This document shows, in pieces, positions 4,511 to 44,651 of a DNA stretch of 64,000 bases. Made by a program: the position numbers and the translations under genes. The stretch covers positions 29,774 to 93,773 of the forward strand of contig JAFEDI010000129.1 of the NCBI GenBank assembly GCA_018241725.1. Direction: 5' to 3'. Position 1 is the stretch's first letter, and each line of letters opens with the position of its first letter. Under the pieces are notes generated by a model that did no database searches, was not told the DNA's origin, and was given only the letters and a program-made list of their open reading frames with translations. Origin of the DNA: Pseudomonadota bacterium. GTDB taxonomy: Bacteria > Pseudomonadota > Gammaproteobacteria > Burkholderiales > Rhodocyclaceae.

Positions 4511-7500
4511 TCAGGCTGGCGTGGTGACGAAGTTGTGGATCAGGCTGAGCAGCACGTCTTCGTCGTAGGGCTTGCCGAGGTAGTGATTGACGCCGATTTC
4601 CTCCGCGTAACGCTTGTGCTTTTCGGCCGTGCGGGAGGTGATCATGATGATCGGCACGGCCTTCAGGCGGGCGTCGGCGCGGATGTTGCGGGTCAGGTCG
4701 AAGCCGTCCATTCGCGGCATCTCGATGTCGGCGATGACCACGTCAGGGGTGACAGTAAGCAGTTGCTCCAGTGCATCGACGCCGTCCTTGGCGGTGACGA
4801 CACGGTAGCCTTCCCGTTCGAGCAGGCGCCCGGTGATTTTGCGCACCGTCAGGGAGTCATCGACCACCATCACCGTCGGCTGGCTCGGGGTGCTGGCACC
4901 CGCCTGGATCGGCGTTTCATCGTCGCCCTTGTCCGGACTGCGGCCGGCCAGCGCGACCGGGTTGAGGATCAGCACGATCTCGCCATCACCGAGCACCGTG
5001 GCACCGGAGTAGCCAACCATCCGGGCATACTGCGGGCCAGCGTTCTTGACGACGATTTCCTGGTTGCCGCGCAGGGCGTCCACGTGCAGTGCCAGGGTTT
5101 CGCTGCCGGCGCGCAGCAGCAGCACCCAGTTGAAGCGTTCGACCTGCGGCTGGGATAGCGGGTCGCCGAGCAGGCGCGGCAGGTAGCGGTAGCCGTAGTG
5201 CTCGCCGAGCCAGTCGGTGCCGTGGTCGCCGCGGATCTTCTCGAGGGCTTCCGCCTTCAGTTCCAGCACCTGAGCGACCATCGACGAGGGGATCGCGAAG
5301 GTCCGGTTACCGGCGCGTACCAGCAAGGCCTGGGTGACCGCCAGGGTCAGCGGCAGGTGGATGCGGAAAATGGTGCCTTCGCCGGGCGTCGTGTCCACGC
5401 TGATGCGGCCGCCGACCGCGGCGGTTTCGCTCTTCACCACGTCCATGCCAACGCCGCGACCGGCCAGGCTGGACAGGCTGGCGGTGGAGAAGCCCGGCAC
5501 GAAGATCAGATTGGTGAGGCGCTTGTCGTCGGTGTCCTCGTCGGCGGAAATCAGTCCGCTGTCGATGGCGTGTCGGCGGATGCGTGTGAAATCGAGGCCC
5601 GCGCCATCGTCACGGAATTCGATCAGCACCTCGTTGCCCTCATGGGCGATCTTGAGGGTGATCTGGCCGATTTCCGGTTTGCCGGCGGCCCGTCGTGCCT
5701 CCGGCGTCTCGATGCCGTGGGCGACCGCATTGCGCACCAGGTGGGCGAGGGGGCCGCTCATCGCGTCGAGCACGCTGCGGTCGATTTCGATCTGCCCGCC
5801 GATGATGTCCAAGTTGGCGCGGCGGCCGAGCTCCTTCGCTGTCTGGCGGACCAGGCGGTAGAGTCGCTCGGCCAGACTGTCGAAGGGCACCATGCGCACG
5901 TGCATCAGCGACTGCTGCAGTTCGCGGGCCATGCGGGACTGGGCATGCAGTGCCGATTCGGCGCCGTCCAGGTTGCGCAGCAAATTCTGCTGCACGGTGG
6001 TCACGTCGCCGACGCTCTCCGCCATCATCCGCGTCAGTTCCTGCAGACGGGTGTAGCGGTCCATCTCCAGAGGATCGAACTCGGTGTGCTGGGTCTCGAC
6101 CTGGGACAGGCGCGACTGCATCTGGGTGTCAGCCTGGATTTCCACTTCCCGCAGCTGATTGCGCAGGCGGATGACGTTCTCGGTGAGGTCGAGCAGGGAG
6201 CGGCGCAGCGTGCGCAGTTCGCCTTCGATGCGGGTGCGCGCGATGCTGATTTCGCCGGCTTCGTTGACGAACTGGTCGACCCGGCTGGCATCCACGCGCA
6301 GCTGGGTGCGGGCCGCGGGGCTGGCTGCTTCGCCGGGTTGCAGCGAAGCGCTCTCTTCGGCCGGAGTCTCGCTTTCACGCGGTACCGGGCTTGTGGCTGT
6401 CTGGCCGCTCTGCAGCGTGTCGAGAGTCTGGCGGGCCTGGTCGAGGGCGGCCTCGATCTCGTCCACGATGGCCGTGCCCCCCGGATCCTGGGTGCGGGCT
6501 CGTTCGAGTCGGGTTTCCAGGTCGTGGAGGTTCTGCCCGAGGTTCATCGCGCCGACCATCCGTGCACTGCCCTTCAGGGTGTGCAGCAGGCGCGCCACGC
6601 CAGAGGGGTGGCTCGTTTCGGCAGGCGCTGTACGCCAGGTACGCAGGGCCGTGTCGAGGTGGTCGAGAAGCTCGTTGCCTTCGTCGAGGAAGATCGGCAG
6701 CAGTTCCGGGTCGAGATCGTCATGGAGCTGCGTCGCGGGCGGGCTGCTTTCGGTTGCGCGGGCCGGGGTTTCCTCGCGGGGGCGCAGGGTGGCGGTGACG
6801 AGTTCGGGTGGAGCTGTCTCCGTGGGCAGGGAAATGATGTCGGCGAGATGGGATGCCTGTATGGCGTCCAGCTGCGTGATCAGTTCCGGTTCAGGGGCGG
6901 GCAGCACGCGGGCGCCAAGCTGAACCACCATGCTTTCGAGGGCCGCAGCGCTGTCGATCAAGACTTCTGCTTGCTTGGCGGATGGAGCCTTGTCGAGGTC
7001 GGCAAGACGCTGCTGAGCGAGTTCGAGGGCCTTGGCGAGCTGTTGCGGCGCACTGAAATGGGCGGTACCGGAAATGCCGGCCAGCGTGTGGGCTGCACGG
7101 ATGGACACCGTGGCGGGTGTCTGCGCGGGATTGACCGGCAGGCGCGACAGTTCCTGGCGTAGCGTGGCCACGTGCTGCCGGGCCTCGGCGAGATAGAGGT
7201 CGAACAGCGGGCGGGACAAGGTGATTCCGCCGAAGCGGACTTCGTCCGGGCCGATGGCCGTTTCGGGTTCCCCGACGATCTCTTCTGGCAGCAGAGGCTC
7301 GGTAGAGGGCACCTCCACCTCTTCGAGCTCTTCGACGGTTTCGGTGGTGAGTTCGATGTCTTCCAGGGGAAGGGGCTCTTCGAGCACCACTTCCGCGGGA
7401 AATTCGGCCACGATCTGCTCCGCTTCCGCTTCCGCTTCCGCTTCCGCTTCCGCTTCCGCTTCCGCTTCCGCTTCCGCTTCCGCTTCCGCTTCCGCTTCCG

Positions 7501-10500
7501 CTTCCGGCATTGGAGCCTGTTCGGCAGGTGGTATCTCTCCCAGGTCGAAGATGTCGAAGGATTCGATGTCGTTGGGTGCTTCGAGGGCTTCGAGAGGCTC
7601 GGGGATTTCGAGGGTGTCTGCTCCTTCCCGCTCGCCCGCTTCGGTGGGCTCCTCGGGTGGTAGAAGCTCTTCGATTTCCAGAGCATCCGTCACGGTAGCC
7701 GGTTCTTCCTCGCTGTCGAGGATGTCCAGTTCATCGAGGGACTCCGGAACCGTTTCGTCGAGAGGCTCGATCACGTCCGCCGCAGGGCGGGCTGCTTCGT
7801 CGTCACTGGGGAGGTCGAAGCTGAGATCGAAGTCGACAGGGGTCGGAGCCGGTTCCTCGGCGAGTACCGTGGTCAGGCTGACATCGGGCTCCCGCTCCCG
7901 CTCCTGTTCCGGTGCGGAACGGGCGGTTGGCTGGTGGGTTCGGGTGCGAGCCTCCTCGAAACTGAGGTCGGGGAAGTTGAGGTCGATGGTCTCGATTGCA
8001 CTGACATGGGCTGCGGCCGCAAGCGTGAGGCTTTCGCCCAGGTCGGTGGCGGCGAAATCCAGTTCGGGCAGCGTGATCGACGCTTCCAGGTCGACTTCCT
8101 GTGGTGCGCTGTCGAGGCTGATTTCAGTCAGCCCCGGTTCCGTCGGAGCCGCCTCGGGTTGAGTCTTGGCGGGTTTCGCCGGCTCGACAGCGGACGGTGG
8201 GGCGGTCTCGTTGCGCAGGCGGGCTGCTTCGGTGAGCAGGATGCTGACATCCCGATGATGGCCGGCTCCGGCTTCGAGTTGGTCGATCCAGGCGGAGAAG
8301 GCCTCCAAGCCATTGGCAATCAACCGCAGCAGTTCGTCGTCGACCGGTAGTTCGAGACGCAGCCAGTGGTTGAGGGTCTGCTCCATGCCCCAGGCGGCTT
8401 CGCCGAAGTCCTTGAGCCCGACCATTCGGCCGCTGCCCTTGAGGGTATGGAAACTGCGCCGGATGGCCGTGAGCACTTCCAAATTGGACGGTTCCTGTGC
8501 CAGCTGGGCCAGGTTGGCGGCGATGGCGGCGCGGACGTCGATGGCCTCTTCAATGAAGATCGCCAGCAGTTCCGCGTCGATCTCCTCTTCGCTGGCATCA
8601 ATAAGCCGGCTGGCCTCGGGGGACAGAGCCGGTGCTTCGGTGGCGGCGATGGGGGTGGGGGCGTTGAACAGCGTGCCGGCGTCGAGCAGGTTGAGGGCGT
8701 CGCGGGCCTGCTTCTCGAGCTCGGGGTCGGCGGTCAGTGAGGCGTCCTGGCGCAGGCTCTCCAGGTTGATCTGGAGTTCGGTGCGCAGCCCGGAGTCGTC
8801 GGGGTTGTTCTTCAGGGCCGCAGCGAGAGCGGCAGTTTCCCTGCGCTGCTGTGCGAGCCCAGCCTCGATGCTGTCGGTAGGGGCGCGCTGAAGCTCGGCA
8901 TCCGGGTACAGAATGCGTTCAAGGTCGGCCGGGCCGTGCTGCAAGGCTTCGACATAGATGCCGAGGGCCGACAGCCTGTGGGCGATCTCTTCGAAGGCCG
9001 GCTCTTCGGGCGACACTTCCTCACTGGTTGACAGGGCCCGGATGCGGGCCGCTGCATCCTGAAGCAGGCGCACCGCAGCATCCTCGTTGAGGACCGACAA
9101 GGCCCCCTCGATCTGCTTGAGGGGCGCGCGCACGGCGGCGAGGATGTCCGTACGCGTGGGGGCGCGGAAGAAGCTATCCAGATTCTGTTCGACGTCACCC
9201 AGCGAGGTGAGGATCTCATGCGCCAACTGGCGGTTGAGGTGATGAGTCTGGACATCACTGTCGGCAATCACCAGCGGGGATACCTGCTCACCTCGCTGAT
9301 GGGCTTGCAGGCGGGCCACCACTTGGGCGAGCTGGGCATCGCTGACGTCGTCACCATGCTGGTGATTGTCGAGGCGGGCTTCCAGCAACAGCATCGTTGT
9401 CGCCATGTCCATGGACAGTGCGTCGGTGAGCTGCAGAGGGTCCTGGCGCAGCCAGCGTGCAGTGGCACCCAACTCTTCGAGCAGCTCCGAGACGTCGGGC
9501 TGGTCAATGGCTTGGGCCATTTCCGCCAGAGGGGCGATGGCGTCCTGGAAACGGGGCAGGCCGATGGCATTGCCCTTGGCGAACTGGTTCCAGGCCTCCT
9601 TCGCGTCAGTCAGTCCGCTACGCAGTCCAGCGAGTAGGGGCGCCTGTGGTGTGTCGCTGATGGGGTGCTTTCCTGCCGGGATCAGGTATTCGAGCTGGTA
9701 CGCGGCACGAATCGAGTCGATGGCCGGCGAGTGAGCCGAGGACATGGCGACCTGGTACAGCACGTCGCGCATCAGGCGCTCGGCGACGACTCCGGAACCT
9801 TCGAGGACGCGCCGCATCTGGGCGTCGATACGGCCGCAGAGTCGTTTGCTGGCCGCGTCCGCCGGGATGCCCTGCAGGCCGAGGGCGTCGAAGAAAGCCG
9901 AGCAAGCGAGCCAGAAGGCGCGCGCGGCCGGAACGGTCTGCAGATCTTCGATGCCGCTGGTGGCTTCGCGCATCTCCTGCGGGCCAGACGGGTCCTGGGG
10001 GGCGCGGAACCACTTGAGCAGCCCGCGCTCGAAGCGGCTGCGCAGGGCACGCAAGTGCTTCGGGTCGTTACTGTCGATGGCTGGTGTCGCAAAATCCGGA
10101 CGCAGGTTCAGATCGGGGAAGAACAGTTCGCTGGGCGTCGGCGCTTCCTGGCCACGAGCCGCTGCCAGTTCGGCGTATAGCTCGAAGAGCCGTAGGGCCT
10201 GATCGGGTTGCCCACGGGTCAGCTCGTCGAGGTAGTTGCCGATGGCTGCGATGCAGCGGGCGGCCAACTGGGCGATCTCGGGCGTGCAGGCGATCTGTTG
10301 CGAAGCCAGTTCTCCGAGCAGGCGGTCAAGCTGGTCGGAGAACTGGGTCAGTCCGTCCAGTCCGACGATGGACAATGCGCCGTGGGCCTGGTGCAGGTGG
10401 GTCTGGGCAAATTTGATCCGGCCGAGGCGGTCGGGGCTCGAGCTGGCTTCAGCCAGCGCGTCCGCCGCCCGTCCGAGGGCCAGGTCGATCTCGCCTTTGA

Positions 10501-40459: not shown

Positions 40460-40822
40460 TCAGCGGAAAAGGCTGGCGACGAACGCGACGGCGAGAAGCA
40501 GCAGGCCACCTCCAAGAATCTGCACGCGGCGGCGCAGGGCTTCGGCGGCGCGTACGAGTTCGGCGTTCTGTGCAGCGAGGGCGGCGAGCAGTTCGGCACT
40601 GTCCTGCTGGCGGGCTTCGAGTTCGGTCAGGCGGGCATCGATTGCGCCGAAGCGGGAATCGGGATCTGTGGCCGCCGGCGCGGTGGGGGTTTCCGCTTCA
40701 TTGGTGTGATGCTTGCCAACCTTCTGCCACAGCTTGCGGGCGCCCTTGGCTACGGTCGGGGCATGGGCGATCACGTCGGACCAGGGAATTGCGCTGAACA
40801 GGGCGGACCAGGGGGCGGCCAT
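40460..40822 (-). CDS. hypothetical tail-anchored coiled-coil protein
   Basis: 120 aa from ATG 40822, preceded by AAGGAG. Coiled-coil-like LTELEARQQDSAELLAALAAQNAELVRAAEALRRR and a C-terminal TM ILGGGLLLLAVAFVASLF. The longer ORF-track version (to 41101) has no support. Confidence 0.55.
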   Translation of the reverse strand: MAAPWSALFSAIPWSDVIAHAPTVAKGARKLWQKVGKHHTNEAETPTAPAATDPDSRFGAIDARLTELEARQQDSAELLAALAAQNAELVRAAEALRRRVQILGGGLLLLAVAFVASLFR

Positions 40823-40957
40823 CGGGAACTCCTTCAGAACGAGGGCGAAAACCTTCGCCGGCAGGCTTTGGGTGGGCTGGGAGGTGCATCTGCTTGCCCC
40901 CCGCGAATGACCTTTGGTCAGGCGGTAGGGCGAACAAGTTCGCCGCAGACTGCTGGC

Positions 40958-40990
40958 GAACCCCCGGATTTCTCGGGGGTTCTGTTTTTC
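40958..40990 (+). terminator. orphan intrinsic-terminator-like hairpin (plus-strand orientation)
   Basis: GAACCCCCG-GATTTCT-CGGGGGTTC followed by TGTTTTT. There is no plus-strand gene upstream, and on the minus strand no U-tract follows. Confidence 0.45.
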
Positions 40991-41099
40991 CGGGTTTAGC
41001 AGAAGGCGGTGTGCAAGCGTCCGTGAAACGCGAGTCGGAAAGCCATTTTGGCCAGGCCGCGGTTCTGCAGGTTCGGTGAGCCCTTCTGAGGGCAGGATC

Positions 41100-41324
41100 A
41101 AGACGTAAAAGTAGCCTGTCGGCCTCTTCCTTTGCCTTGCGGGTCAGTACCAAGGCCATTTTCTTCATGTTCTGACAGGCGGCCGAGAGCAGGCATTGGG
41201 CCTGCACTTTGGCCAAGCCCCTGAAGCGGGCATGGCGATGCCCATGCAGCTCCTTGGCGTCGGCAAAGCTGCGCTCAACCGTTTCCCTGCGCCGGGCGTA
41301 GAGACGCTTGCCCAGCAGTGTCGG
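41100..41324 (-). pseudogene. C-terminal remnant of an IS1182/IS5-type DDE transposase
   Basis: Reverse-frame translation gives PTLLGKRLYARRRETVERSFADAKELHGHRHARFRGLAKVQAQCLLSAACQNMKKMALVL. This matches the conserved tail of this transposase family (TVER-FA--K---G-R--R-RGL-KV ... N-KK-A). No N-terminal or catalytic part is present. It begins immediately after the recQ stop. The left boundary is uncertain. Confidence 0.6.
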
Positions 41325-41325
41325 A

Positions 41326-43149
41326 TCAGCCTGCTTCGCTGGCAAGCAGCGCGAGGATGTCCTCCCCGTAGGCATCCAGCTTGCGGTCGCCTACGCCGGA
41401 GATGGTCGCCAGGCCTTCGATGCTGTCTGGGCGCTGGCGGGCGATGTCGCGTAGCGTAGCGTCGTGGAAGATCACGTAGGCGGGCACGTTACGTTCCTTG
41501 GCGGTGGCGGCGCGCCAGGCGCGCAGGCGGTCGAGGAGGGCGGCTTCCGCGCCGGTGGCTTCCGGCCAATCTCGCAGCTTGCGGGTAGTGTCGCCCTTGC
41601 GGCCCTTCTTGGCCGGGGCAGTGTCGATGCGCAGCGTGAAGCTGCTTTCGCCGCGCAGCAGCGGGCGGGCGGCCTCGGTGAGGGTCAGCGCGCCGTAGCG
41701 TTCGTGATCCACCGCCAGTGCGCCGTGGGCCACCAGCTGGCGGATCAGCGTGCGCCAGCCCTTGTCGTCCAGTTCGTTGCCGATGCCGAAGGTGCTGACC
41801 TGGTCGTGCTGCCATTCCCTGACCTTGTCGGTGGTCTTGCCGAGCAGCACGTCCACCACGTGGCCGGCGCCGAAGCGGTTGCCGGTGCGGAATACGCAGG
41901 ACAGGGCCTTGCGGGCCGATTCGGTGGCGTCGCGCACCTGTGGCGGATGCAGGCAGGTGTCGCAATTGCCGCAGGGCTCGGCGGCTTCGTCGAAGTAGCC
42001 GAGCAAGCGTTGGCGGCGGCAACCGGTGGTTTCGCAGAGGCCCAGCAGTGCGTCGAGCTTGGCGGTGGCGACGCGCTTTACTTCGTCGCCGGCTTCGCTT
42101 TGGTCGATGAAGCGGCGCTGCTGTACCAGGTCGGCCACGCTGTAGGCCATCCATGCCTCGGCGGGCTGGCCGTCGCGGCCGGCGCGGCCGGTTTCCTGGT
42201 AGTAGCCCTCGATGGAGCGCGGCAGGTCCAGGTGGGCGACGAAGCGCACGTCGGGCTTGTCGATGCCCATACCGAAGGCGACGGTGGCGACCATCACGAT
42301 GCCGTCCTCGCGCAGGAAGCGGTCCTGGTTGAGGGCCCGCTCGTCGGCGCCCATGCCGGCATGGTAGGGCAGGGCAGAGATGCCTTTCTCCTGCAGCCAG
42401 GCGGCGGTTTCGTCCACCTTCTTGCGGGAACTGCAATAGACGACGCCGGCCTCGTCCAGATGGCCGTCCTTCAGGAAGGCCAGCAGCTGGGCGCGGGGAT
42501 TGTCCTTGGGGACGATGGTGTAGCGGATGTTCGGCCGGTCGAAGCTGGATACGAACTCGCGGGCGTCGGTCAGGCGCAGGCGCTCGGCGATCTCGCGGCG
42601 GGTCTGGGCGTCGGCGGTGGCGGTCAGCGCGATGCGCGGTACCTGCGGATAACGCTCCGGCAGGATCGACAGCTGCAGGTATTCGGGCCGGAAGTCGTGG
42701 CCCCACTGGGACACGCAGTGGGCTTCGTCGATGGCGAACAGGGCCAGCTGGCCAGATTCGTGCAGGTGGTCGAGCAGGTCGAGGAAGCGCGGTGTGACCA
42801 GACGCTCCGGCGCCACGTAGAGCAGGTCCAGTGCGCCGGCCAGCATCGCCCGCTCGATCTCCATGGCCCGCTCGAAGCTCAGGCTGGAGTTGAGGAAATC
42901 CGCCGCCGCGCCGACTTCCTTCAGCGCGCTGACCTGATCCTGCATCAGCGCGATCAATGGTGACACGACGATGGCCACGCCGGGCCGCAACAGCGCCGGG
43001 ATCTGGTAACACAGGGACTTGCCGCCGCCGGTGGGCATCAGCACCAGCGCATCGCCGCCGGCAGCCACGTGCTCGACGATGTCCTCCTGCGAACCGCGGA
43101 AGTGGGTGTAACCGAAGACGTGGAAGAGGGTTTCGCGGGCGCGGCTCAT
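41326..43149 (-). CDS. recQ: ATP-dependent DNA helicase RecQ
   Basis: 607 aa. Motif I (MPTGGGKSLCYQ), DEAH box (DEAHCVSQWGHDFRPEY), RQC zinc-binding Cys cluster (CRRQRLLGYFDE...CGNCDTC) and a C-terminal HRDC. Confidence 0.95.
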   Translation of the reverse strand: MSRARETLFHVFGYTHFRGSQEDIVEHVAAGGDALVLMPTGGGKSLCYQIPALLRPGVAIVVSPLIALMQDQVSALKEVGAAADFLNSSLSFERAMEIERAMLAGALDLLYVAPERLVTPRFLDLLDHLHESGQLALFAIDEAHCVSQWGHDFRPEYLQLSILPERYPQVPRIALTATADAQTRREIAERLRLTDAREFVSSFDRPNIRYTIVPKDNPRAQLLAFLKDGHLDEAGVVYCSSRKKVDETAAWLQEKGISALPYHAGMGADERALNQDRFLREDGIVMVATVAFGMGIDKPDVRFVAHLDLPRSIEGYYQETGRAGRDGQPAEAWMAYSVADLVQQRRFIDQSEAGDEVKRVATAKLDALLGLCETTGCRRQRLLGYFDEAAEPCGNCDTCLHPPQVRDATESARKALSCVFRTGNRFGAGHVVDVLLGKTTDKVREWQHDQVSTFGIGNELDDKGWRTLIRQLVAHGALAVDHERYGALTLTEAARPLLRGESSFTLRIDTAPAKKGRKGDTTRKLRDWPEATGAEAALLDRLRAWRAATAKERNVPAYVIFHDATLRDIARQRPDSIEGLATISGVGDRKLDAYGEDILALLASEAG

Positions 43150-43183: not shown

Positions 43184-44176
43184 TCAGAACAGCTTTGCGA
43201 TATGTGCGGACAGTCCTGTGGGATTGACGAAAGTGAGTTCGTACATGCCCGACAGGCCGGTGGCCTGCTCGTCGGTGAGGCCGGTGCAACACAGGATGAA
43301 CTGGCTACGGTCGATGCCCAGGCGTTTCCTCAGTTTGAGGTACTTATCGATATCCTGACGGAACTCGCCCGTCTTGCATTCGACGCAGATGGGCGTGTTG
43401 CCGTCTACCAGGAAGAACACGTCGAGCTCGTGGAGGTCTTCGTTCGGAAAGACGACGGATAGATTGCGGGTGCATGAGAAAGGCCCCTCCTTCTGCTGGA
43501 AGAAGGCGAGGAGTTTCATCAGTGCAAACCACTCCAACCATTCGCCCGCAAAAAAGCTGCGGATGGCCGGGGCCGACTGGATGGTTGCGCGGCCGATCTT
43601 GTCCTGCTTCTGATAAAAATACTTGGCGAGAAAAGTGTGGTCGTAGAGGCGCTTGCAGAAGGCATTGATGGCTTGTCCGTCCTTCTGGCTGCGTTCGCCG
43701 AGCTTGAGGCTGAAATGCGGAACATCCTTCTGCTGGCCCCAGCGGATTTTCTCGACCACGTCGCCGAGGAGACCGTAGTTGTCGCCGATCTCGACCGCGA
43801 TCTCGTCGAAGAAGCCGGTGGTATTGACCGCCTCAAGGCTTGGATGGACTTGAATCTGGCGACGCTGAAACCAGTTCACGATCTGCAGGTGCCATTCTTC
43901 GCTGGCCAGATGGTCCGTGTTGTGAATGTCGAGTGTCGCGAGCCGGGCTGCAGCTCCTGGCTGGGACGAACCCGCCGCCGCCGGTGCTTGGGCGGCGCGC
44001 AGGCGCTTGATTTCATCCTGCTGCGCGAAATATTGCTGCAGCACTTTCCGCACGAAGAGCACGGTGTCGTAAACCGGGACCGGATTTGCGCAGGCGGGGC
44101 AGTCGATCGATGCGCCGATCCGGTCGGTGGGTGCTTCGGCCACATGGCCGCACTTGTTGCATCGGAGAATCGCCAT
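43184..44176 (-). CDS. zinc-ribbon + PD-(D/E)xK nuclease-fold protein (Card1/DUF1887- or NERD-like C-terminal domain), function unknown
   Basis: 330 aa. N-terminal 4-Cys ribbon (CNKCG...CPAC), an Ala/Gln-rich linker, and a central ~120-aa region with no motif I recognise. C-terminal GEWLEWF...HELDVFFLVDGNTPICVECKTGEF gives D-x13-E-x-K. Lower G+C than the neighbouring genes. No obvious SD. Confidence 0.7.
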   Translation of the reverse strand: MAILRCNKCGHVAEAPTDRIGASIDCPACANPVPVYDTVLFVRKVLQQYFAQQDEIKRLRAAQAPAAAGSSQPGAAARLATLDIHNTDHLASEEWHLQIVNWFQRRQIQVHPSLEAVNTTGFFDEIAVEIGDNYGLLGDVVEKIRWGQQKDVPHFSLKLGERSQKDGQAINAFCKRLYDHTFLAKYFYQKQDKIGRATIQSAPAIRSFFAGEWLEWFALMKLLAFFQQKEGPFSCTRNLSVVFPNEDLHELDVFFLVDGNTPICVECKTGEFRQDIDKYLKLRKRLGIDRSQFILCCTGLTDEQATGLSGMYELTFVNPTGLSAHIAKLF

Positions 44177-44183
44177 TTGGGCT

Positions 44184-44221
44184 GAAAATGAAAACGGGTT
44201 GGCTGATTATGCCAACCCGTT
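44184..44221 (-). terminator. intrinsic terminator after the small ORF, abutting the nuclease-candidate start codon
   Basis: On the minus strand: AACGGGTTGGC-ATAATCA-GCCAACCCGTT followed by TTTCATTTTC. An 11-bp perfect stem. The T-rich tract ends 8 nt before ATG 44176. Confidence 0.65.
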
Positions 44222-44249
44222 CCACGCGAGGCGACCCCAGAATGGTGGC

Positions 44250-44513
44250 CTATGCGGCTCCGTGATGTTCGCCGATGTATTGCTTGAGTACCGAGCGCAG
44301 TGCTGCGGTGTGTTCCTCGTCACCCTTTTCACGCGAGTGCTTGATGTCGTCGGCGATCATGTGGCGGATGCGTCGGTCGCCTTCCGGAGAGTGACATAGA
44401 TAGCAGCCCATCTCCACCGCGAGCATTTCAGGTACATGCTCGTGTTCGGCAATGGCCAGGATTTCGTCTTCGCTCAGGTCTGAGAGTTCGATGCAGTCTT
44501 GCAGTGTCAACAT
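44250..44513 (-). CDS. small acidic Cys/His-containing hypothetical protein
   Basis: 87 aa from ATG 44513 (AGGAGA SD 9 nt upstream). The ORF-track start 44540 has no SD. Sequence: MLTLQDCIELSDLSEDEILAIAEHEHVPEMLAVEMGCYLCHSPEGDRRIRHMIADDIKHSREKGDEEHTAALRSVLKQYIGEHHGAA. I recognise no family. Confidence 0.6.
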   Translation of the reverse strand: MLTLQDCIELSDLSEDEILAIAEHEHVPEMLAVEMGCYLCHSPEGDRRIRHMIADDIKHSREKGDEEHTAALRSVLKQYIGEHHGAA

Positions 44514-44615
44514 GATGGCGTTCTCCTGCTGGCTTTCCATCGATGTTGCGGGAGGCCGGACGGTCGTCGTCAGATACGGTCTTCGATGGAAGGCAACCCT
44601 TATTTAAGTTCTTTT

Positions 44616-44631
44616 CGTGAATGAAATCACG
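44616..44631. promoter_or_regulatory. CRP/Vfr-type palindrome CGTGA-ATGAAA-TCACG
   Basis: Read directly. GTGA-N6-TCAC core in the AT-rich divergent region between the small ORF and the MBL hydrolase gene, 21-36 nt upstream of ATG 44652. Confidence 0.35.
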
Positions 44632-44651
44632 GTTTATTTGAAGGAATTTTC

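What the first reader, a model, noticed from the sequence alone, without database searches (positions are those of the whole stretch)
43184..44176. Candidate undescribed effector: zinc-ribbon + unknown middle domain + Card1/NERD-like PD-(D/E)xK nuclease core, encoded directly upstream of recQ
The protein has three modules. (1) MAILRCNKCGHVAEAPTDRIGASIDCPACANP is a CxxC-x16-CxxC zinc ribbon. (2) After an Ala/Gln/Pro linker comes a ~120-aa region (WHLQIVNWFQRRQIQVHPSLEAVNTTGFFDEIAVEIGDNYGLLGDVVEKIRWGQQKD...) in which I find no known motif. (3) The C-terminal FFAGEWLEWFALMKLL...NEDLHELDVFFLVDGNTPICVECKTGEFRQDIDKYLKLRKRLG has the helix-Glu, Asp and Glu-x-Lys spacing (D-x13-E-x-K) of restriction-endonuclease-fold nucleases. 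The ECKTG string recalls the Card1/Can2 (DUF1887) and NERD cores. In Card1/Can2 that core is driven by a CARF sensor, which is absent here. It appears to be replaced by a zinc ribbon plus a novel domain. Two hypotheses follow. It may be a stand-alone defence or abortive-infection nuclease with an unknown trigger. Or it may be a nuclease partner working with the adjacent RecQ helicase.
Basis: partly seen in the sequence, partly recalled or inferred. Interest (0 to 1): 0.75.

Follow-up and report, generated by a model that had tools for sequence, protein, structure and literature searches.

The report
CARF-less Can2/Card1-type nuclease with zinc ribbon
This gene encodes an uncharacterised but well-conserved relative of the CRISPR helper nucleases Can2/Card1 in which the usual signal-sensing domain is replaced by a zinc ribbon, and its position next to recQ is a genus-specific accident, not a functional partnership.

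Summary
The ORF (43184-44176, minus strand, 330 aa) is real and conserved in about 400 genome loci.

**What it is.** It is a Can2/Card1/Cdn1-clade PD-(D/E)xK nuclease.
- All of the top 20 PDB fold matches are VC1899, Cdn1, Can2 or Card1 (E down to 7e-10).
- The five-residue catalytic network E215/E250/D252/E266/K268 matches Can2 and Cdn1. It is kept in at least 94% of 149 diverse relatives.

**What is missing.** There is no CARF domain and no cyclic-oligoadenylate source nearby.

**The "unknown middle domain" is only half unknown.** Its C-terminal half appears to be the accessory lobe that Can2-family nuclease domains already carry. Residues 93 to about 145 (W102, TxGFFDE) remain unassigned.

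**What varies.** The middle domain plus the nuclease form an invariant core. The N-terminus is interchangeable across relatives: zinc ribbon with coiled coil, TerD, TPR or other.

**recQ link.** recQ adjacency holds only in Zoogloea and close kin (26 of 80 loci). Elsewhere the gene stands alone, has its own promoter, and sits among unrelated housekeeping genes.

**Evolution.** The gene lies in the lowest-GC stretch of the window. It is under purifying selection (dN/dS 0.10-0.20). It is absent from plasmids and phages.

**Verdict.** The nuclease identity is well supported. A stand-alone conflict-effector role is inferred, not shown. This is a new variant of a known kind, of moderate interest.

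The parts
43184..44176 (-). Whole ORF, 330 aa plus stop: CARF-less Can2/Card1-family nuclease
   Evidence: ORF list. 1318 homologues, with the top 120 full length. About 400 genome loci. AF2 model mean pLDDT 88, pTM 0.73.
44066..44176 (-). Residues 1-37: four-strand zinc ribbon, C6xxC9-x16-C26xxC29
   Evidence: The four Cys are invariant. Strands 2-5, 12-15, 23-25 and 32-37 appear in the model. Zn_ribbon_8 E=0.004, below cutoff. Rpo12/RPA12 ribbons E=0.014-0.14. phrog_9414 E=8e-5. Present in only 52-60 of 149 diverse relatives.
43991..44065 (-). Residues 38-62: long amphipathic helix, an inferred coiled-coil dimerisation element
   Evidence: Helix 38-62 in the model. Relatives P0137 and P0149 carry much longer coiled coils at this position, seen as Prefoldin, DUF4200 and similar hits. 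Dimerisation itself is inferred.
43901..43990 (-). Residues 63-92: Ala/Pro/Gln-rich flexible linker
   Evidence: pLDDT is below 50 for residues 63-78. It is the least conserved segment, mean column identity 0.44 against 0.62-0.70 elsewhere.
43778..43900 (-). Residues 93-133: N-terminal half of the middle domain, with W102, T119-x-GFFDE125 and G131; unassigned
   Evidence: Invariant or nearly so in A1. W102 122/131, F123 109/138, D124 118/137 and G131 131/139 in diverse relatives, whatever their N-terminal module. No significant PDB fold match when folded alone. No Pfam hit.
43577..43777 (-). Residues 134-200: C-terminal half of the middle domain (alpha-beta-alpha-beta-beta); probably the Can2-family accessory lobe
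   Evidence: PADLOC CARF_PDDEXK and Csx1 profile alignments start at residues 146-177. hhalign to an Arcobacter DUF1887 CARF protein starts at residue 161. Full-length Foldseek TMq of 0.47-0.49 exceeds the 0.39 that the 128-aa core alone could give, and alignments span 237-249 columns. Can2 and VC1899 carry an extra four-helix, two-strand motif in their nuclease domain (PMC7969007). Residue-level superposition was not available.
43187..43576 (-). Residues 201-330: PD-(D/E)xK nuclease core of Card1_endonuc (DUF1887) type
   Evidence: PADLOC CARF_PDDEXK E=4e-11. PDB profile hits to Can2 (E=1e-4) and VC1899 (E=8e-4), with GxWxE, ELDV and IECKT aligned. Foldseek top 20 are all VC1899, Cdn1, Can2 or Card1.
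43373..43534 (-). Catalytic network E215 (43532-43534), E250-L-D252 (43421-43429), E266-C-K268 (43373-43381)
   Evidence: Aligns with Can2 E243, E276/D278 and E291/K293 (mutants in PMC7969007). Matches the spacing of Cdn1 E274/E308/D310/E323/K325 (PMC12825302). Conserved 131/134, 122/130, 129/130, 125/129 and 125/129 in diverse representatives.
44193..44221 (-). Perfect 11-bp inverted repeat enclosing TTGGCATAAT (44206-44215): a candidate extended -10 promoter, possibly also an operator or the orf87 terminator, 17 nt upstream of the ATG
   Evidence: Sequence. TTGGCATAAT is invariant in 12 of 12 aligned Zoogloea loci. It lies at -36 to -44 in nearly all Zoogloea loci, and also in L010 and L038. 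RNA fold -36.8 kcal/mol, z=-2.6. Other lineages carry their own TATAAT or TATACT at a similar distance. Function is inferred.
41326..43149 (-). recQ, a neighbour that is not part of the system
   Evidence: Full RecQ domain set. Adjacent to the nuclease only in Zoogloea-type loci. GC 68.3% against 58.8% for the nuclease.

Best explanation
The gene encodes a stand-alone, metal-dependent PD-(D/E)xK nuclease of the Can2/Card1/Cdn1 (DUF1887, Card1_endonuc) clade that has no CARF sensor.

**Shown**
- The fold and the complete five-residue catalytic network of the cOA-activated CRISPR ancillary nucleases are present.
- That network is conserved under purifying selection.
- Residues 93-330 (middle domain plus core) form one invariant module.
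- The N-terminus is a swappable module. Here it is a zinc ribbon, a helix and a flexible linker. In relatives it is TerD, TPR or long coiled coils.
- The gene is a solitary unit with its own promoter-like element. It was acquired horizontally (lowest GC in the window) and is patchily distributed across phyla.
- It is not linked to Cas10, to cyclases or consistently to recQ.

**Inferred**
- The protein probably dimerises through helix 38-62.
- In Can2, Card1 and Cdn1, activity requires the two nuclease lobes to close into a shared substrate cleft. I assume the same here.
- That closure would be controlled by whatever the zinc ribbon binds (nucleic acid or a protein), not by a cyclic oligoadenylate.
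- Once active, it would cut ssRNA or ssDNA, or nick dsDNA, as Can2 and Card1 do.
- The most likely biological role is as a conflict or stress effector, causing growth arrest or abortive infection.

The nuclease identity is firm. The trigger and the biological role are not established.
For: **Fold.** Foldseek top 20 PDB hits are all VC1899, Cdn1, Can2 or Card1, E=6.6e-10 to 4e-4. The model has pLDDT 88.

**Sequence.** PADLOC CARF_PDDEXK E=4e-11 over residues 177-304. The family profile hits Can2 and VC1899 with the motifs aligned.

**Catalytic residues.** They map to experimentally mutated Can2 E276/D278 and to the Cdn1 network (PMC7969007, PMC12825302). They are conserved in at least 94% of 149 representatives that are <=50% identical to each other.

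**No CARF.** No CARF hit at E<=1, although the same PF23400 model does detect the CARF in a Caballeronia homologue. None of 72 longer relatives has CARF or SAVED. Instead 6 have TerD and about 3 have TPR, with zinc ribbons and coiled coils in others.

**Solitary gene.** There is no shared neighbour in 53 non-Zoogloea loci. A -10 element lies upstream in most lineages.

**Horizontal origin.** GC is 57.2% for 43184-44651 against 66.4 +/- 2.3% for the window, the minimum of the window. Identity is 48-52% between Betaproteobacteria, Desulfobulbales, a cyanobacterium and an Anaerolineae MAG.

**Functional constraint.** dN/dS is 0.10-0.20.

**Family precedent.** Every characterised member of the fold family is an antiviral effector (PMC7969007, PMC12825302, PMC11090510).
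Against: **Against a defence role**
- The gene is not in recognisable defence islands. Of 63 immediate neighbours, only 3 are AAA_21-type and 1 is a DNA methylase; the rest are housekeeping.
- It has no tblastn match in 72,556 plasmid or 50,697 phage records, and only one partial copy among 2.9 million viral contigs.
- It sits at one fixed locus in every Zoogloea species examined, with dN/dS like that of recQ. That behaviour fits a domesticated chromosomal gene better than a fast-turnover defence gene.

**Against assuming activity**
- VC1899, the closest structural match, is nearly inactive in vitro (PMC7969007).
- Pfam Card1_endonuc is below its cutoff on this protein: 16.9 bits against 26.4.

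**Untested.** Dimerisation, the trigger and the substrate were not tested here.
Confidence: 0.6

Rival explanations
1. It is a nuclease partner of RecQ. The two would be co-transcribed, with the nuclease processing DNA intermediates unwound by the helicase during repair or recombination.
For: The two genes are on the same strand with a 34-nt gap and no terminator-like site between them. The arrangement is conserved in all Zoogloea loci. Elsewhere there are occasional helicase or topoisomerase neighbours: hrpA divergent in Azonexaceae loci, and a topoisomerase gene directly downstream in L054 and L056.
Against: - Adjacency is confined to one genus plus one MAG (26 of 80 loci). It is absent in Methyloversatilis, Pseudomonas, Thauera, Thiobacillaceae, Azonexaceae, Desulfobulbales, the cyanobacterium and the Anaerolineae MAG.
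- The nuclease differs in composition from recQ: GC 58.8% against 68.3%, GC3 0.76 against 0.88, and dS about 2.4 times higher. This points to a separate origin.
- A promoter-like site precedes recQ within the 3' end of the nuclease gene, although one such site is no more than chance would give.
- About three helicase or topoisomerase contexts among roughly 25 independent contexts is close to what chance would give.
Confidence: 0.07
2. It is a domesticated chromosomal nuclease with a cellular role, such as RNA turnover, stress-induced nucleic-acid processing or repair, and is not an anti-phage effector.
For: It occupies a fixed syntenic position in all Zoogloea and lineage-level synteny elsewhere. 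dN/dS is as low as for recQ. It is absent from plasmids, phages and viral contigs. Its neighbours are mostly housekeeping genes. TerD fusions in relatives point to stress or metal sensing, not to phage sensing as such.
Against: - Its distribution is very patchy: about 400 loci among 185,579 species genomes, with cross-phylum identity near 50%. That marks an accessory, horizontally moving gene.
- It lies in the lowest-GC stretch of the window.
- The N-terminal modules are swappable, and one MAG has a tandem duplication. Both are typical of conflict systems.
- All characterised relatives are immune effectors.
Confidence: 0.25
3. It is a decayed, inactive remnant of a CRISPR ancillary nuclease that lost its CARF domain, 'cast adrift' like VC1899.
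For: VC1899 is the best structural match and is almost inactive and CRISPR-orphaned (PMC7969007). No cOA source is nearby.
Against: - All five catalytic residues are nearly universally conserved in 149 diverse relatives.
- dN/dS is 0.10-0.20.
- The architecture is full length in about 400 loci.
- The family has diversified into several architectures.
Confidence: 0.05

Closest known systems
Can2 / Card1 / Cdn1 (DUF1887 CARF nucleases, type III CRISPR ancillary effectors; PDB 7BDV, 6WXW, 8Q3Z, 9U49)
   Same: They share the PD-(D/E)xK fold (Foldseek E down to 4e-9). They share the GxWxE, ExD and ExK motifs and their spacing (PMC7969007, PMC12825302). They probably share the accessory lobe N-terminal to the core.
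   Different: The target has no CARF domain and no Cas10 or type III CRISPR nearby. Its N-terminus is a zinc ribbon, a helix and a disordered linker. It also has an extra conserved segment (residues 93 to about 145, TxGFFDE) with no detectable counterpart. It therefore cannot be regulated by cA4 or cA6 binding to CARF.
VC1899 of Vibrio cholerae (PDB 1XMX), an orphan DUF1887 protein
   Same: It is the best structural match (E=6.6e-10, 249 columns). It is also encoded away from any CRISPR locus, and it retains the nuclease active-site residues (PMC7969007).
   Different: VC1899 still has a CARF domain, though a degenerate one, and shows only weak residual RNase activity in vitro. The target family lacks CARF altogether and shows strong conservation and diversification.
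2xCARF-D-ExK nuclease of compound type III-A CoCoNuT operons (Bell et al. 2024, PMC11090510)
   Same: It shows that Can2-type nucleases are used outside type III CRISPR. An example was recovered here on Caballeronia plasmid pSBC2-5, in an FtsK-VWA-PP2C-kinase-AAA operon.
   Different: Those proteins keep their CARF domains and sit in large multi-gene operons. The target is a single gene without CARF.
Effector families with swappable N-terminal sensor modules, such as Shedu SduA (from my own knowledge)
   Same: A conserved PD-(D/E)xK effector module is combined with variable N-terminal domains. The variable N-termini of the target's own superfamily were shown.
   Different: It is a different nuclease subfamily. 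PADLOC gave only CARF_PDDEXK, Csx1 and PD_DExK hits, with no Shedu hit. This is a resemblance in design, not membership.

Membership tests
PD-(D/E)xK phosphodiesterase superfamily | The alpha-beta-beta-beta-alpha-beta core carrying (E)...D...(D/E)xK metal-binding residues | tested here: met
   The AF2 model has H203-229, E233-242, E248-257, E261-268, H273-286 and E293-297. D252 and E266-x-K268 are invariant. Foldseek hits are to PD-(D/E)xK nucleases.
Card1_endonuc / DUF1887 nuclease domain (Pfam PF09002) | Sequence match to the family model, with GxWxE, ExD and ExK motifs | tested here: inconclusive
   On the target itself the score is 16.9 bits, E=0.005, below the 26.4-bit cutoff. However, close homologues carry precomputed PF09002 hits, and 53 of 72 longer relatives match at E<=1e-3. 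PADLOC profiles of the same domain give E=4e-11. The motifs align residue for residue with Can2 and VC1899. Membership of the domain family is well supported by transitivity and structure, but the curated threshold is not met.
Can2/Card1/Cdn1 CARF nucleases (type III CRISPR ancillary effectors) | N-terminal CARF (Rossmann-fold) domain that binds cyclic oligoadenylate | tested here: not met
   There is no CARF family hit at E<=1, including PF23400 CARF_Card1, which does detect the Caballeronia homologue. Residues 1-200 are a zinc ribbon, a helix, a linker and a non-Rossmann alpha/beta domain. The isolated middle domain has no CARF match in the PDB.
Can2/Card1/Cdn1 CARF nucleases (type III CRISPR ancillary effectors) | Genomic association with a type III CRISPR-Cas locus (Cas10 cOA synthase) | tested here: not met
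   No Cas10, Csm or Cmr hits among 46 window proteins or among 63 immediate neighbours in other genomes. Only +/-1 gene was scanned in the other genomes.
Can2/Card1/Cdn1 CARF nucleases (type III CRISPR ancillary effectors) | cA4- or cA6-activated, metal-dependent cleavage of ssRNA, ssDNA or supercoiled DNA by a homodimer | not testable with these tools
   This needs biochemistry. No multimer prediction was available.
   No NERD hit in Pfam at E<=1, and none in the Foldseek top 50.
Zinc ribbon (Zn_ribbon_8 / FmdB-like, Rpo12-like) | Two CxxC knuckles on beta-hairpins that coordinate one zinc ion | tested here: met
   The four Cys are invariant. The model has four short strands. Sequence matches are below cutoff: PF09723 E=0.004, RPA12/Rpo12 E=0.014-0.14, phrog_9414 E=8e-5. 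Zinc binding itself was not tested.
RecQ-associated operon partner | Conserved gene adjacency with recQ across lineages | tested here: not met
   26 of 80 loci show it, all Zoogloea-type synteny. None of the other lineages does.
Known anti-phage defence systems (PADLOC v2.0) | Match to a defence-system protein model other than the CRISPR ancillary nuclease domain, or location in a defence island | tested here: not met
   Only CARF_PDDEXK, Csx1 and PD_DExK nuclease-domain hits were found. Neighbours are mostly housekeeping.

The most novel reading that the evidence does not exclude
The invariant middle-domain-plus-nuclease module defines a previously undescribed family of single-gene conflict or stress effectors (about 1,100 clusters at 50% identity). 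In it, a Can2-type nuclease is switched on by interchangeable non-nucleotide sensors (zinc ribbon with coiled coil, TerD, TPR), not by a cyclic-oligoadenylate-binding CARF. The conserved W102/TxGFFDE segment would act as the new allosteric relay or ligand site.
Probability: 0.3. Interest if true: 0.65.

Novelty: new variant of a known kind. Interest (0 to 1): 0.45.

Why it matters
Can2/Card1-type nucleases are known only as CARF-gated effectors of cyclic-oligoadenylate signalling. A large, well-conserved branch that keeps the catalytic module but replaces CARF with a zinc ribbon, TerD or TPR would show that this effector is used outside nucleotide second-messenger immunity. It would also give a tractable single-gene system for asking how the closure of the two nuclease lobes can be triggered by other inputs.

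There is a practical point too. Database labels such as 'DUF1887 family CARF protein' on members of this family are misleading, because there is no CARF domain. The recQ adjacency should likewise not be used for functional inference.

Tried and rejected
1. **Fetching full-length Can2/VC1899 homologues.** I seeded the 5.8-billion-protein search with four PDB fragments. It returned only 8 short fragments. The VC1899 fragment had no plasmid match.
2. **Profile comparison against single full-length DUF1887 CARF proteins.** hhalign of the family profile against proteins recovered from plasmids gave low probabilities (4.6% and 1.2%). The only usable result is that one alignment begins at residue 161.
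3. **Folding and searching the middle domain alone (residues 80-202).** The model had pLDDT 77. There was no significant PDB match. Local resemblances of 64-71 columns to the ribosomal S8 N-domain, Smr and MarR wHTH were too weak to assign a fold.
4. **An 'empty-site' test using orf87.** In Parazoarcus and Azoarcus it lies in unrelated contexts, so no insertion site could be reconstructed.
5. **A two-gene island of orf96 plus the nuclease.** Rejected, because orf96/orf87 is a Rhodocyclales-wide small protein that occurs independently of the nuclease.
6. **A conserved operator shared across lineages.** Rejected. Only a -10-like element recurs, and the palindrome is specific to Zoogloea.
7. **Other searches that found nothing.** No literature on a CARF-less Card1-like nuclease or a TerD-DUF1887 fusion. 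No Rfam family anywhere in the window at gathering scores. No significant viral structural relatives in BFVD.
8. **My first greedy ORF census.** It was contaminated by antisense shadow ORFs and was redone with a GC3 filter.
Full report
**1. Observation**

- The sequence contains C6xxC9-x16-C26xxC29 and D252-x13-E266-x-K268.
- A gene with the full RecQ domain set (DEAD, Helicase_C, RecQ_Zn_bind, RQC, HRDC) begins 34 nt downstream on the same strand.

The ORF is a real gene.
- A search of 5.8 billion proteins gave 1318 hits. The top 120 are all full length at 48-100% identity.
- A scan of one genome per species found about 400 loci that encode a relative.
- dN/dS against eight Zoogloea orthologues is 0.10-0.20, close to the 0.08-0.15 of the adjacent recQ.
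- The best-matching loci are Zoogloea and related MAGs (95-70% identity), so the window comes from a Zoogloea-like betaproteobacterium.

**2. The nuclease**

Pfam alone is weak: Card1_endonuc E=0.005, below its cutoff. Other evidence is much stronger.
- PADLOC profiles of CARF-PD-(D/E)xK proteins match residues 177-304 at E=4e-11, and thirteen related profiles also match.
- An AlphaFold2 model built on a 30-sequence alignment is confident: mean pLDDT 88, pTM 0.73.
- Its 20 best matches among solved structures are all VC1899, Cdn1, Can2 or Card1, with E from 6.6e-10 to 4e-4.
- The family profile aligns GEWLEW, ELDVFFL and IECKTG to the corresponding Can2 and VC1899 strings.

Counting along that alignment gives these equivalences:

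| Target | SthCan2 |
|---|---|
| E215 | E243 |
| E250 / D252 | E276 / D278 |
| E266 / K268 | E291 / K293 |

E276 and D278 are the pair mutated to inactivate Can2 (PMC7969007). The spacing 35-2-14-2 also matches the Cdn1 network E274/E308/D310/E323/K325, whose spacing is 34-2-13-2 (PMC12825302).

These residues are invariant in the 30-sequence alignment. In 149 representatives that are no more than 50% identical to each other, they are kept in 131/134, 122/130, 129/130, 125/129 and 125/129. No NERD similarity was detected.

**3. What replaces CARF**

No CARF model matches the protein at E<=1. The dedicated CARF_Card1 model does pick up the CARF in a Caballeronia homologue. The model of residues 1-200 shows:
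- a four-strand zinc ribbon (residues 1-37);
- a long helix (38-62);
- a disordered, poorly conserved linker (63-92);
- an alpha/beta domain (93-200) that is not Rossmann-like.

A full-library profile search found 1,115 cluster representatives.
- Residues ~90-329 recur as one block.
- The N-terminus varies. Only 52-60 of the top 149 have the zinc ribbon.
- Among 72 longer relatives, 6 carry a TerD domain and about 3 carry TPR repeats. Several have long coiled coils after the ribbon, many have unannotated C-terminal extensions, and none has CARF or SAVED.

So the swappable, sensor-like part is the zinc ribbon with its helix. The middle domain belongs to the invariant core.

**4. Is the middle domain novel?**

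Folded on its own (residues 80-202, pLDDT 77), it has no significant structural neighbour. The best E is 0.078, with only 64-71-column local resemblances to the S8 N-domain, Smr and MarR-type wHTH.

Four lines of evidence indicate that its C-terminal half is the accessory lobe already present in Can2-family nuclease domains.
- PADLOC profile alignments begin at residues 146-177.
- An hhalign alignment to an Arcobacter DUF1887 CARF protein begins at residue 161 (low probability).
- Full-length Foldseek alignments span 237-249 columns with TMq 0.47-0.49. The 128-residue core alone could contribute at most 0.39.
- The Can2 paper defines the nuclease domain as residues 166-366 and describes an extra motif of four helices flanking two strands, shared with VC1899 (PMC7969007). 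In Cdn1 the nuclease domain starts about 116 residues before the first catalytic Glu (PMC12825302). That would put the equivalent boundary near target residue 99.

I could not obtain residue-level superpositions, so this mapping is inferred. Residues 93 to about 145 carry the strongly conserved W102, T119-x-GFFDE125 and G131. They remain without a detectable counterpart.

**5. Genomic context**

The block MBL-fold hydrolase / orf96 / nuclease / recQ is syntenic in every Zoogloea locus and in one Rhodocyclaceae MAG (26 of 80 loci). recQ is not adjacent in any other lineage examined:
- Methyloversatilis, Pseudomonas oryzagri, Thauera and Thiobacillaceae;
- Azonexaceae, Accumulibacter, Desulfobulbales and cable bacteria;
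- Nodosilinea and an Anaerolineae MAG.

After correcting my first census for antisense shadow ORFs, no neighbour family is shared across lineages.
- The 63 non-redundant immediate neighbours are mostly housekeeping. Examples are ribonucleotide reductase, GlnRS, HrpA, a topoisomerase, transporters and hydrolases.
- Only three are AAA_21-type proteins and one is a DNA methylase.

The 64-kb window is ordinary core chromosome. It holds a Pil-Chp chemosensory cluster, lptD-surA, purC, glnE, yhdP, tldD/pmbA and kup, and it has no Cas10, cyclase or CBASS components.

Composition and mobility point in different directions.
- The nuclease-orf96 segment is 57.2% GC against 66.4 +/- 2.3% for the window. 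It is the lowest of any stretch of that length.
- GC3 is 0.76 for the nuclease against 0.86-0.90 for the flanking genes.
- The family has no tblastn match in 72,556 plasmid or 50,697 phage records, and only one partial copy among 2.9 million viral contigs.

orf96 turned out to be an 87-aa acidic protein conserved across Rhodocyclales. It occurs independently of the nuclease, so it is not a dedicated partner.

**6. Regulation**

A perfect 11-bp inverted repeat (44193-44221) lies 17 nt upstream of the ATG. Its 5' arm and loop read TTGGCATAAT.
- That string is invariant in 12 aligned Zoogloea loci.
- It sits 36-44 nt from the start codon in nearly all Zoogloea loci, and also in a Methyloversatilis locus and a Desulfobulbaceae locus.
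- It fits an extended -10 element.
- Other lineages carry their own TATAAT or TATACT at a similar distance.

The gene is therefore most simply an independent transcription unit. No terminator-like site separates it from recQ, so read-through in Zoogloea cannot be excluded.

**7. Mechanism**

Shown:
- an intact Can2-type catalytic module, fused through a flexible linker to a zinc ribbon and a helix;
- no CARF domain;
- a solitary gene;
- horizontal origin;
- purifying selection;
- modular N-termini across the superfamily.

Inferred:
- The protein dimerises through the helix. Relatives have longer coiled coils at that position.
- As in Can2, Card1 and Cdn1, catalysis depends on the two nuclease lobes closing into a substrate cleft (PMC7969007, PMC12825302).
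- That closure is controlled by a ligand of the zinc ribbon, not by cOA.
- The outcome is cleavage of ssRNA or ssDNA, or nicking of dsDNA.

I favour a conflict or stress-effector role for three reasons: every characterised relative is an immune effector, the sensor modules are swappable, and the phyletic pattern is patchy and shaped by horizontal transfer. The stable chromosomal synteny, the low dN/dS, the absence from mobile elements and the lack of defence-island context count against it. They keep a domesticated cellular role alive as a serious rival (0.25). The RecQ-partner idea rests on one genus (0.07). A decayed remnant is contradicted by the conservation (0.05).

**8. Novelty and score**

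Some database entries already label members 'DUF1887 family (CARF) protein' or 'Card1-like endonuclease'. I found no paper describing a CARF-less branch, its zinc-ribbon, TerD or TPR architectures, or any experiment on it. Can2-type nucleases outside CRISPR are known in CoCoNuT operons, but those keep CARF (PMC11090510; example).

This is a new variant of a known kind. It is of moderate interest to defence-system specialists, since swapping sensor modules on a conserved effector is a familiar theme. Interest 0.45.

Noticed in passing
window 44193-44221 (-), core 44206-44215: A perfect 11-bp inverted repeat, AACGGGTTGGC-ATAATCA-GCCAACCCGTT, lies 17 nt upstream of the nuclease start codon. Its TTGGCATAAT core is invariant across Zoogloea, and also occurs at about -37 in a Methyloversatilis locus and a Desulfobulbaceae locus. 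It looks like an extended -10 promoter inside a palindrome, which could be an operator or the orf87 terminator.
   Followed up: partly
window 44250-44540 (-); homologues start at Met10 (44513): orf96/orf87 is a small acidic, His-rich protein with 347 homologues, conserved at 60-100% identity across Rhodocyclales. It stands alone in unrelated contexts in Parazoarcus and Azoarcus. It has no Pfam family, and the JGI automatic name 'LuxS' appears to be wrong.
   Followed up: partly
L028 4885-7002 (Rhodocyclaceae MAG DAOQMM010000074.1): Two tandem paralogous copies of the nuclease gene (342 and 334 aa) sit in the otherwise Zoogloea-type syntenic block.
   Followed up: no
P0144, P0155, P0199 (TerD); P0220 (TPR); P0216, P0262 (1311-1321 aa): Some relatives of the middle-domain-plus-nuclease module are fused to N-terminal TerD domains or TPR repeats. 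Giant proteins carry 3-4 matched stretches of the module. Their genomic contexts were not examined.
   Followed up: partly
L082 (Caballeronia sp. SBC2 plasmid pSBC2-5, NZ_CP049321.1 22738-30968): A 597-aa DUF1887 CARF protein lies in an FtsK/SpoIIIE - nuclease - VWA - PP2C - Ser/Thr kinase - AAA operon. This matches the published compound type III-A CoCoNuT layout.
   Followed up: partly
L040, L044, L058, L066, L073, L077 (hrpA); L054 and L056 about 7127-9730 (topoisomerase); L029, L030, L033 (489-aa helicase): Outside Zoogloea the nuclease gene sometimes lies near other nucleic-acid enzymes: hrpA divergently upstream in Azonexaceae, a topoisomerase gene directly downstream in two Desulfobulbaceae, and a helicase 2-3 kb away in Thauera. 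This is probably lineage synteny or chance.
   Followed up: partly
window 40698-41375 (-): A fragment of a DDE transposase (DDE_Tnp_1_6, only the last ~54 profile positions) lies immediately downstream of recQ. Its ORF overlaps the recQ 3' end by 50 nt. An adjacent 213-aa ORF with low GC3 (0.71) has no Pfam hit.
   Followed up: no
window 43184-44176 compared with 41326-43149: Synonymous divergence of the nuclease gene between Zoogloea genomes (dS about 1.0-1.3) is roughly 2.4 times that of the adjacent recQ (about 0.42) in the same genome pairs. This could reflect relaxed codon bias or a separate history of recombination.
   Followed up: no
window, one of 46 scanned proteins (most plausibly recQ, 41326-43149): PADLOC models DpdF (E=1.7e-261), PsyrT (2.6e-95), an 'alt. 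Cas3' model and BrxH each match one window protein, with no partner genes of those systems present. These look like generic helicase cross-hits, probably from the housekeeping RecQ. The tool output does not say which protein matched.
   Followed up: no
P0089, P0114 and similar entries: Several family members are named 'DUF1887 family CARF protein' in NCBI, although the family has no detectable CARF domain. The name has probably been propagated automatically.
   Followed up: partly
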